Positions 2,255-61,233 of a DNA stretch of 64,000 nucleotides are shown here, piece after piece (position 1 is the first letter of the stretch; every line of letters begins with the position of its first letter). The notes under the pieces are model-generated. The model saw nothing but the letters and a program-made list of their open reading frames with translations, did not search any database and had not been told where the DNA came from. Position numbers and translations under genes: made by a program. Origin of the DNA: Octopus vulgaris (lineage: Eukaryota); contig OX597826.1 in NCBI GenBank assembly GCA_951406725.2, forward strand, positions 2,852,001 to 2,916,000. Reading direction: 5' to 3'.

Positions 2255-2369
2255 GTTTCCGGCCATATTTTGAAAACACTTGTTCTCGTCCGATCACCGA
2301 AGTTAAGCAAAGTCGAGCCTAGTTAGTTCTTAGATGGGTGACCGCTTGGGAAACCAAGGTGCTGCAAAC
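2255..2369 (+). rRNA. 5S rRNA-derived copy (probable pseudogene)
   Basis: GGCCATA..TTGAAAACAC..GTTCTCGTCCGATCACCGAAGTTAAGCAA..CGAGCCTAGTTAGTTCTTAGATGGGTGACCGCTTGGGAA..GGTGCTG matches metazoan 5S rRNA. Terminal GTTT../..AAAC pairing is present; there is a short deletion near the 5' end. Confidence 0.85.
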
Positions 2370-2380
2370 GTCTTTCTAGA

Positions 2381-55478: not shown

Positions 55479-55480
<2 letters not shown>
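55251..55480. mobile_element. Mariner-derived MITE
   Basis: TIRs TGGTGCATAACTATTGCCGCTTTTT / AAAAACCGCAATAATTATACATCA. Confidence 0.7.
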
Positions 55481-55562
<82 letters not shown>

Positions 55563-55804
55563 GTATATATATACAATAGAAATATTAAAATTACTAAGTC
55601 TCTATAAAAGAGATTATGGCAGCGTTTACTGGAAATTAATTGTTATCGCCATATTAATATGGCATTCTTATGGATATAAGAATAATCGCTGCCATGGACA
55701 GCTCCATGAGGCCACCGCCATCAAGATAGCTATTGATACACGATCTGTATCCATTATAACCTTCGAACAAGGGAGGTCAGCCGCTTCACACTGCCAGTCC
55801 GACA

Positions 55805-55846
55805 GCTACAGACGCGTTTCGGGGTATTGCCCCTTGTCAATGTAAC
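55805..55846 (-). ncRNA. Hammerhead motif, U3-A8 core variant
   Basis: GTTACA TTGACAA GGGG CAATA CCCC GAAA CGCG TC TGTAGC. Confidence 0.75.
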
Positions 55847-56154
55847 GTAGTCAGACCCGCAGGTGTTGCCACTGACGTCTCTGTTCGAAGGCTTATATTT
55901 ACCTAGTTTCAGTGGAATACACCCACTTGTTTTCAATAATAGAAATATTAAAATTACTAAGTCTCTATAAGAATGCCATATTAATATGGCGATAACAATT
56001 AATTTCCAGTAAACGCTGCCATAATCTCTTTTATAGAGACTTAGTAATTTTAATATTTCTATTATTGAAAACAAGTGGATGTATTCCACTGAAACTAGGT
56101 AAATATAAACCTTCGAACAGAGACGTCAGTGGCGACATCTGCGGGTCTGACTGC

Positions 56155-56196
56155 GCTACATTGACAAGGGGCAATACCCCGAAACGCGTCTGTAGC
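56155..56196 (+). ncRNA. Hammerhead motif, U3-A8 core variant
   Basis: GCTACA TTGACAA GGGG CAATA CCCC GAAA CGCG TC TGTAGC; predicted cleavage after C56190 (GUC). Confidence 0.8.
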
Positions 56197-56367
56197 TGTC
56201 GGACTGGCAGTGTGAAGCGGCTGACCTCCCTTGTTCGAAGGTTATAATGGATACAGATCGTGTATCAATAGCTATCTTGATGGCGGTGGCCTCATGGAGC
56301 TGACCATGGCAGCGATTATTCTTATATCTATAAGAATGCCATATTAATATGGCGATAACAATTAATT

Positions 56368-56459
<92 letters not shown>

Positions 56460-58305: not shown

Positions 58306-58850
58306 CGTAAAGCGTTAGAAGCTTTGCAAAGGCAATGATAACAATAATATTAATAGTGTCTCCGCTGTGCTGCATCTGCAGTAGAGTGGACGAAACCATT
58401 GTCCATATCACGAACGAATGCCCTATTCTTTCCCTAAACCATTAAAAGATGTGACGACACTATCAGGTAGCGAAAGTGCTACACTGGAAACTGCGAAAAG
58501 CGGGGTTTAAAGAGAGGCAAGGCGTGGTATGAGCTTAAACCGGAGAGAGGTGGAGTCTGAGACTAGCAAAATCCTTTGGGATTTCCCAATCCAAACAGAT
58601 CAGGCGCTAGAGCATTACCGAGCGGACCCAGTGGGGGTGGACAAGGTGTACCACATATGTTATGTAGTTGATGTTGCATGCCCCTTTGACCCACGAATAA
58701 TCACGAAGGAAGGCGAAAAGATGAATAAAAACAACACTCTTCAGGTGAAGATATTGCCAATTATTGTTGGGTCCTTGGGAACAGTATCAAAAGACATTAA
58801 AGTGAATATAAAGGAGATTTGAATAGTGTCCAGTAGAACTGTTTCAAATT
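58306..58850 (+). mobile_element. Second R4/Dong-type LINE fragment
   Basis: DETIVHITNECP..RHYQVAKVLHWKL..KILWDFPIQTDQ..VVDVACPFD..PIIVGSLG. Confidence 0.85.
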
Positions 58851-60708: not shown

Positions 60709-61233
60709 AAAAAATTCAACAATCAGGCTTCCACAGGAAAGGTGATGTCAAACCGTTTTGGGGGACTCAGAGGGCCTATCTATACTGGAAGACTGCCTGG
60801 AAAAGGGCTGTACTATCAATAGTGCAACGTACAGTACATTAATAGCCAAGAAACTGAAACCAGCAACTGCACAAAAGGCTGAAGCCGATTGTCGAAGGAA
60901 GTTTTGTTGTTGCATGGTAATGCACGCCCAGACACAGCCGCCCAAATCGTTGAAATCATTATTCAGTTGGGCTAAATGCCTCCGTTGAAATTCAGAACCT
61001 GACACACTTTCCGACCTAAGAAATCTGATCACGGCCCTTTGTTCTACTTTTATGAATATTGCTAGTGTGGACGGATACTTAGACTGTAAAGCCAAAAAGG
61101 AAAATGGCGCAATCAGGCTCAAACTTCGATCACGTGGGCACAATAGTACCAACTATAAACATGCATGCGCATAGGCAGTGTGAAAATAATAAGGGTATGT
61201 TGTCGAAAGTGCGGATAATTTTTGACTTCCCCT

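What the first reader, a model, noticed from the sequence alone, without database searches (positions are those of the whole stretch)
55575..56368. 363-nt retrozyme-like unit as two differently permuted, greater-than-unit-length copies joined head-to-head
Seen: the left arm (55575-55970) and right arm (about 55964-56368) each cover about 1.1 copies of the same 363-nt unit. They start at different points of the unit, join at a TCTATAA microhomology, differ by about 8 substitutions by my count, and both HHR-sense 3' ends run into (TA)n. There is no credible ORF. Known: non-LTR retrozymes are non-coding HHR monomers of a few hundred nt that form circular RNAs and are thought to use PLE machinery. 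Inference: permuted, terminally redundant copies are what reverse transcription around a circular or tandem RNA would leave, so this may be a young circRNA-forming retrozyme.
Basis: partly seen in the sequence, partly recalled or inferred. Interest (0 to 1): 0.85.

Follow-up and report, generated by a model that had tools for sequence, protein, structure and literature searches.

The report
Hammerhead retrozyme inserted by double priming
This is one of well over a thousand genomic copies of a 363-base non-coding repeat with a predicted self-cleaving hammerhead ribozyme; the copies' ends suggest that a Penelope-type retrotransposon enzyme likely copied one RNA, probably a circle, from both sides of a DNA break at two fixed start points.

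Summary
The geometry is exactly as reported: arms of 363+33 and 363+42 nt, 8 substitutions, a 7-nt junction overlap and (TA)n at both 3' ends. It belongs to a dispersed family with at least 1,172 exact hammerhead-core matches and four subfamilies. The permutation is not free: 3' ends fall at two fixed sites about 60 nt apart (A, B), and 5' ends are truncations. Arm lengths run from 0.08 to 5.5 units, so 1.1 + 1.1 is coincidence. Of 94 classifiable head-to-head insertions, 90 pair an A end with a B end. An intact Neptune-like Penelope element in this genome does the same in 8 of 8 pairs. Repeats and arms of one insertion share one haplotype (1,457 of 1,476 comparisons), and all 213 matched passages of the cut site are scarless. 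This fits double-primed reverse transcription round one RNA circle. No copy was attached to a Penelope ORF in 203 loci, and no parent element was found. Self-cleavage and circular RNA are untested. This locus, with one hammerhead per arm, cannot cut out a monomer itself. Verdict: a new member of the non-LTR retrozymes, with unusually clear genomic evidence for the mechanism.

The parts
55480..55573 (.). (TA)n target microsatellite, left
55575..55970 (-). left arm: unit position 68 round to 100, 396 nt; its 3' end (55575) is end class B, with the tail
55575..55632 (-). about 60-nt tail between end A and end B, terminal on this arm only
55805..55846 (-). predicted type I hammerhead of the left arm; predicted cut after 55811
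   Evidence: core and C17 placed; span by offset from the right arm; activity untested
55964..55970 (.). 5'-5' junction, 7-nt microhomology
55964..56368 (+). right arm: unit position 1 round to 42, 405 nt; its 3' end (56368) is end class A, without the tail
56056..56109 (+). second, degenerate hammerhead-like motif beginning at end B
   Evidence: core broken in subfamily X and in some V copies
56108..56243 (+). predicted long rod that extends hammerhead helix I
56155..56196 (+). predicted type I hammerhead: 6-bp helix I, U3-A8 core variant, 4-bp helix II, palindromic 2-bp helix III, GUC; predicted cut after 56190
   Evidence: U3-A8 variant described in PLEs in PMC4209133
56371..56499 (.). (TA)n then (TATG)n microsatellite, right

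Best explanation
This is a head-to-head insertion of a non-coding 363-nt hammerhead repeat family, likely made when a Penelope-like RT-endonuclease cut both strands of a (TA)n target and primed reverse transcription from both DNA ends on one RNA, probably a monomer circle, at two fixed start sites about 60 nt apart. SHOWN: the family, two 3' end classes, one of each per head-to-head insertion, variable 5' ends joined by microhomology, target duplications, one haplotype per insertion, arms up to 5.5 units, a scarless cut site, and the same architecture in an intact PLE of this genome. INFERRED: arms with two or more hammerheads are transcribed and self-cleave (probably as a dimer); the monomer is ligated; a dimeric PLE protein binds near A/B; each RT runs round the circle until it stalls; the two cDNAs anneal by 2-7 nt. 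About 0.9 for PLE-driven double priming and about 0.6 for the circle.
For: Copy number: 1,172 exact core matches and 1,190 exact B-end-(TA)n junctions, controls 0. Architecture: of 210 mapped insertions, 113 are head-to-head, 89 single and 8 complex, with no simple tail-to-tail pair. End pairing: 90 of 94 classifiable pairs are A+B (p 3e-22 against 0.5), including 20 of 21 in a set picked only by a B end. In 44 of 90 pairs neither arm is contained in the other, so two primings are needed. Junctions and targets: microhomology of 2 nt or more in 32 of 36 junctions with non-negative overlap, against 15.7% by chance; (TA)3 follows 263 of 304 A/B ends; duplications of 6-13 nt flank whole insertions where the target is not pure TA. 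One template: 0 of 65 pairs mix subfamilies; at inherited variable sites 832 of 841 within-arm and 625 of 635 between-arm comparisons agree, where about 306 and 239 would disagree at random; rare variants occur in all repeats of an insertion in 34 cases. No indel in 213 matched passages of the cut site. The 40 best-scoring loci hold no array beyond 5.5 units. Compensatory changes in helices I, II and III. The intact RT-GIY-YIG element shows (TA)n targets, two ends about 40 nt apart and 8 of 8 mixed pairs. Literature: two internal RT start sites define the PLE tail and the protein extends both strands (PMC11167929).
Against: No RNA-level evidence. Rfam does not recognise the hammerhead. Cleavage is not guaranteed: minimal PLE hammerheads cleave poorly in vitro, 8 of 9 Xenopus retrozyme dimers did not cleave, and cleavage was dispensable for the anole PLE. 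No PLE sharing sequence with the unit was found, so the mobilising family is unidentified. The tail is about 60 nt, longer than the 30-40 nt reported. 19 of 113 head-to-head pairs had an end outside both classes and 4 broke the rule. 17 of 53 resolvable junctions carry filler rather than microhomology, and 24 were unresolved. In this very locus the arms differ by 2%, including one inherited variable site (position 146), and 39% of comparisons with other loci are closer. Covariation reflects only a few subfamily-level events.
Confidence: 0.72

Rival explanations
1. Same PLE-driven double priming, but the template is an uncleaved linear multimer transcribed from a few homogeneous tandem source loci; the hammerhead is weak or idle and no circle is needed.
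For: A scarless cut site is also expected here. 29 of 337 arms carry two or more hammerheads, so tandem sources exist. Unprocessed RNA was the main substrate of the anole PLE in vitro. Arm lengths decay smoothly.
Against: A new variant arises in one repeat, yet many inherited haplotypes are fixed across all repeats and both arms, which needs repeated passage through a single unit. Repeats within insertions keep 1-2% private differences, so they are not being homogenised. No long arrays among the 40 best hits. The core and helices are conserved with compensation.
Confidence: 0.2
2. The inverted arm arises by fold-back self-priming of one cDNA or transcript, as proposed for rotifer Penelope elements (PMC3846280).
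For: Some junctions sit at the 16-nt palindrome near unit 12-27 or in the rod's base stem. Same haplotype in both arms.
Against: In 44 of 90 pairs neither arm lies within the other. Both arms end at a fixed site on target DNA, with one duplication around the whole insertion.
Confidence: 0.04
3. The copies are 5'-truncated terminal repeats (pLTRs) of a full-length Penelope element, not an independent element.
For: PLE-type hammerhead, tail and inverted structure; the unit may well descend from a pLTR.
Against: Arms wrap from unit end to unit start without an ORF, up to 5.5 times. Of 203 loci, 8 had PLE protein nearby; the 4 whose orientation or closeness allowed attachment were read and are nested insertions. 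No shared 5' flank among 88 single arms beyond three chance pairs. No similarity to the PLE loci fetched.
Confidence: 0.03
4. A local inverted duplication or an assembly artefact.
For: Palindrome between microsatellites.
Against: Over a thousand dispersed copies with the same end rule; the arms differ at 8 sites; the unit is also in contigs of independent runs.
Confidence: 0.01

Closest known systems
Metazoan non-LTR retrozymes (Cervera and de la Pena 2020, PMC7229834; Li et al. 2026 preprint 10.64898/2026.07.22.740005)
   Same: Non-coding unit of 150-450 bp with a type I hammerhead, GC under 50% (42%, from base counts), short tandems, larger target duplications, strong folding, coexisting PLEs. 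The mussel units are 350-390 bp.
   Different: Mostly dispersed, 5'-truncated and head-to-head in (TA)n rather than in arrays; U3-A8 core; two fixed 3' ends. In the parts I read these papers propose circle-templated cDNA and PLE mobilisation but do not map insertion ends.
EN+ Penelope-like elements: tail and inverted pLTR (PMC8557442, PMC3846280, PMC11167929)
   Same: Two 3' ends, tail often at one end only, inverted 5'-truncated copy, AT-rich or (TA)n targets, target duplications of about 10 bp, U3-A8 hammerhead with palindromic helix III (PMC4209133).
   Different: No ORF; tail about 60 nt; the whole unit is 363 nt. The one-of-each rule is counted here (90 of 94; 8 of 8 in the autonomous element), while the passages I read state it qualitatively.
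L1 twin priming (recalled, not read)
   Same: Two target-primed cDNAs on one RNA joined by microhomology, giving an inversion.
   Different: In L1 the second primer lands at variable internal sites and the parts do not overlap. Here both starts are fixed and the arms re-copy the same sequence.

Membership tests
non-LTR retrozyme | type I hammerhead motif in each unit | tested here: met
   core, three helices and GUC; compensatory changes; no Rfam match
non-LTR retrozyme | ribozyme self-cleaves | not testable with these tools
   5' ends are enriched 3.3-fold in the 12 nt just 3' of the cut site (17 against 5.1 expected), but the strongest peak is at the rod base, so RT stalling explains it too
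non-LTR retrozyme | 150-450 bp unit in tandem copies, GC under 50% | tested here: met
   361-363 nt; up to 5.5 units; 29 of 337 arms with two or more hammerheads
non-LTR retrozyme | no protein coding | tested here: met
non-LTR retrozyme | no LTRs; target duplications longer than 4 bp | tested here: met
   6-13 nt duplications; PBS and PPT not searched for
non-LTR retrozyme | expressed as linear and circular monomer RNA | tested here: inconclusive
   only assembled contigs of runs guessed to be RNA
PLE-mobilised element | two 3' ends (tail), inverted truncated copy, AT-rich target | tested here: met
PLE-mobilised element | sequence shared with the pLTR of an autonomous PLE | tested here: inconclusive
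   none among 50 GIY-YIG loci, but only 150 of 6,136 candidates were scored
autonomous PLE | RT plus GIY-YIG ORF within the repeat unit | tested here: not met

The most novel reading that the evidence does not exclude
These insertions are a genomic record of a small ribozyme-made circular RNA being written into chromosomes: a dimeric Penelope enzyme puts one RT at each of two start sites on the same circle and rolls both round it from opposite sides of one break. The strict one-tail, one-no-tail rule would then be the general integration mechanism of endonuclease-bearing Penelope elements.
Probability: 0.5. Interest if true: 0.78.

Novelty: new member of a known kind. Interest (0 to 1): 0.57.

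Why it matters
How Penelope-like elements make their tandem and inverted insertions is an open question, and the idea that retrozyme circles are the retrotransposition template is a proposal in the papers read here. This family is small, abundant and polymorphic enough to test both from sequence. It gives a near-strict end-pairing rule and evidence for one template unit per insertion. An intact PLE in the same genome follows the same rule, so a 363-nt RNA and a 781-aa protein are ready for an in vitro test.

Tried and rejected
Two different RNAs per insertion: I suspected this from the 2% arm difference; rejected. A-to-I editing signature on the RNA strand: none (A>G 54 against T>C 71). Rfam: no hammerhead family; the low-score hits are hairpin or AT artefacts. 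Expression: no RNA holder listed on record; 14 holders were guessed to be RNA. Contigs of X1, X2, X5 and X15 cover most of the unit and three show the 363-nt return joint, which a tandem gives as well as a circle; not counted as evidence. Parent PLE: BLAST against 50 GIY-YIG loci gave only a nested retrozyme copy. A look-alike of end B in L129 is single-copy, and 7 of the 8 hits of an exclusion pattern, when read, were family members. An apparent shared repeat heterogeneity in L068, L074 and L078 was an alignment artefact. A sequence-based removal of duplicate loci over-merged and was replaced by coordinates. The promoter was not looked for with a tool.

Full report
Observation. The geometry is exact. 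The left arm (55575-55970, minus) is one 363-nt unit plus 33 nt, the right arm (55964-56368, plus) one unit plus 42 nt. They differ at 8 of 396 positions, overlap by 7 nt and both end in (TA)n. I number the unit from 55964. It has no credible ORF and folds strongly (z -11.2).

The ribozyme. Rfam finds none. By motif, 56155-56196 is a type I hammerhead with a 6-bp helix I, a core with U3 and A8 in place of C3 and G8, a 4-bp helix II, a palindromic 2-bp helix III and GUC at 56190. The U3-A8 covariant and the palindromic helix III that implies dimer cleavage are described for PLEs (PMC4209133, passages). Across 25 copies of four subfamilies, 94% of cells pair and 7 pairs change on both sides, among them one each in helices I, II and III; U3-A8 is invariant. 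These are few independent events, and activity is untested.

The family. The genome is 2.8 Gb in 227 contigs; an octopus is my guess and was not tested. There are 1,172 exact matches to a 27-nt core and 1,190 exact end-B-(TA)n junctions, controls 0. I mapped 210 insertions from five samples: the 30 best BLAST hits (biased to long arms), most of the first listed hits of two patterns on contigs 1-2, 25 hits of subfamily X, and 40 new end-B sites of the 100 listed. 31 overlapping loci were dropped by coordinate; about three further loci look like segmental duplicates and were kept. Subfamilies U, V and W differ at 23-43 of 363 columns, and copies lie a median 1.4-1.7% from their column majority. 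X is about 82% identical.

Ends. 3' ends pile up at unit 38-42 (A) and 99-103 (B), and 263 of 304 run into TA repeats. Of the 210 insertions, 113 are head-to-head, 89 single and 8 complex; none is a simple tail-to-tail pair. Of the 113, 90 are A+B, 2 A+A and 2 B+B; 19 have an end outside the classes. The window locus is B (left) plus A (right). 5' ends are spread round the unit, with peaks at 265-276 (4.2-fold, the base of the long rod) and 229-240 (3.3-fold, just 3' of the cut site). Arms run from about 30 nt to 2,000 nt; 119 of 337 exceed 370 nt, but only 10 of 64 in the least biased sample. Of 77 junctions examined, 53 were resolved: 36 overlap or abut, 32 of them by 2 nt or more (chance 15.7%), and 17 have filler. 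Duplications of 6-13 nt flank whole insertions in non-TA targets, so each is one event. In 44 of 90 pairs neither arm lies inside the other, which rules out simple fold-back copying for them.

One template. No pair mixes subfamilies (0 of 65). At inherited variable sites, repeats in an arm agree in 832 of 841 comparisons and the two arms in 625 of 635; 11 of 94 insertions show any disagreement, the window locus among them. Divergence within arms equals divergence between arms (U 2.0 and 1.9%, V 1.1 and 1.2%) and is strand-symmetric, as expected of later mutation. Rare variants fill all repeats of an insertion in 34 cases, for example five copies in L033. All 213 matched passages of the cut site lack indels (the pattern would miss badly disrupted junctions). 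The longest array among the 40 best of 2,577 candidates is 5.5 units. My inference: each generation passes through one unit that is then copied repeatedly without a scar, which a ligated circle does most simply. Homogeneous linear multimers remain possible.

The machinery. A GIY-YIG search found many intact 781-codon frames. L204 has a 4.7-kb period, an upstream ORF and an RT-GIY-YIG ORF. Its cysteine linker suggests the Neptune clade (by eye, against the description; no tree built). It carries a U3-A8 hammerhead-like motif, targets (TA)n and has two 3' ends about 40 nt apart. All 8 of its head-to-head pairs examined combine the two ends. It shares no alignable sequence with the unit, so it shows the mechanism is active here but is not shown to be the partner. 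No copy is attached to a PLE ORF: 8 of 203 loci have PLE protein nearby, and the four read are nested insertions.

Literature. PMC11167929 (main text and methods read): the anole PLE cuts and extends both strands, starts RT at two internal sites that delimit the tail, is predicted to be a dimer and does not need hammerhead cleavage in vitro. PMC8557442 (passages): inverted truncated copies, and a tail often at one end only. PMC3846280 (passages): head-to-head forms attributed to self-priming. PMC7229834 (abstract, passages, sections 14, 15, 17): retrozyme circles shown in mussel and axolotl; circle-templated tandem cDNA and PLE mobilisation proposed. The 2026 preprint (parts 1-3 of 5): a PLE origin argued from co-occurrence and trees; 1 of 9 dimers cleaved. 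PMC7151607: one passage, not used. Searches found no description of this family, of the pairing count or of the haplotype test. The library is partial, Repbase was not available, and I read no supplements; Figs S1-S2 of PMC11167929 and S9 of PMC7229834 may bear on this.

Verdict. Real, and a new member of the non-LTR retrozymes, moved by PLE-type double priming. The window locus itself is a dead-end daughter with one hammerhead per arm. The architecture is qualitatively known; the near-strict pairing rule and the single-template evidence are the addition. Interest 0.57.

Noticed in passing
window 56056-56109 (+), 55892-55945 (-): Second, degenerate PLE-type hammerhead-like motif starting at end B. 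It lies in the most conserved part of the unit (0-1 differences per 33 nt between subfamilies), which may be the protein-binding site.
   Followed up: partly
L204:441-5260 and L201-L216: Young, intact two-ORF Neptune-like Penelope family (479 and 781 codons), 728 exact 3' motifs; a candidate enzyme for in vitro work.
   Followed up: yes
L192, L129, L266, L217-L220: Further PLE families (40-63% protein identity to L204 where compared); L129, L192, L266 and L220 show U3-A8 hammerhead-like motifs near their ends.
   Followed up: partly
window 55633-56368: Read-through of this locus would form a 338-bp, 98% paired hairpin, a possible substrate for editing or small RNAs.
   Followed up: no
window 2255-2370 (+): 5S rRNA-like copy, 78 bits; probably a dispersed pseudogene.
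   Followed up: no
window 58511-58822 (+) and 60748-61152 (-): Look by eye like LINE endonuclease and mariner transposase fragments (recalled motifs); no Pfam hit.
   Followed up: partly
L252; L228 and L242; L014 and L018: Insertions with identical junctions, probably segmental duplicates; L256 and L270 share a junction with swapped ends, so junction hot spots recur.
   Followed up: partly
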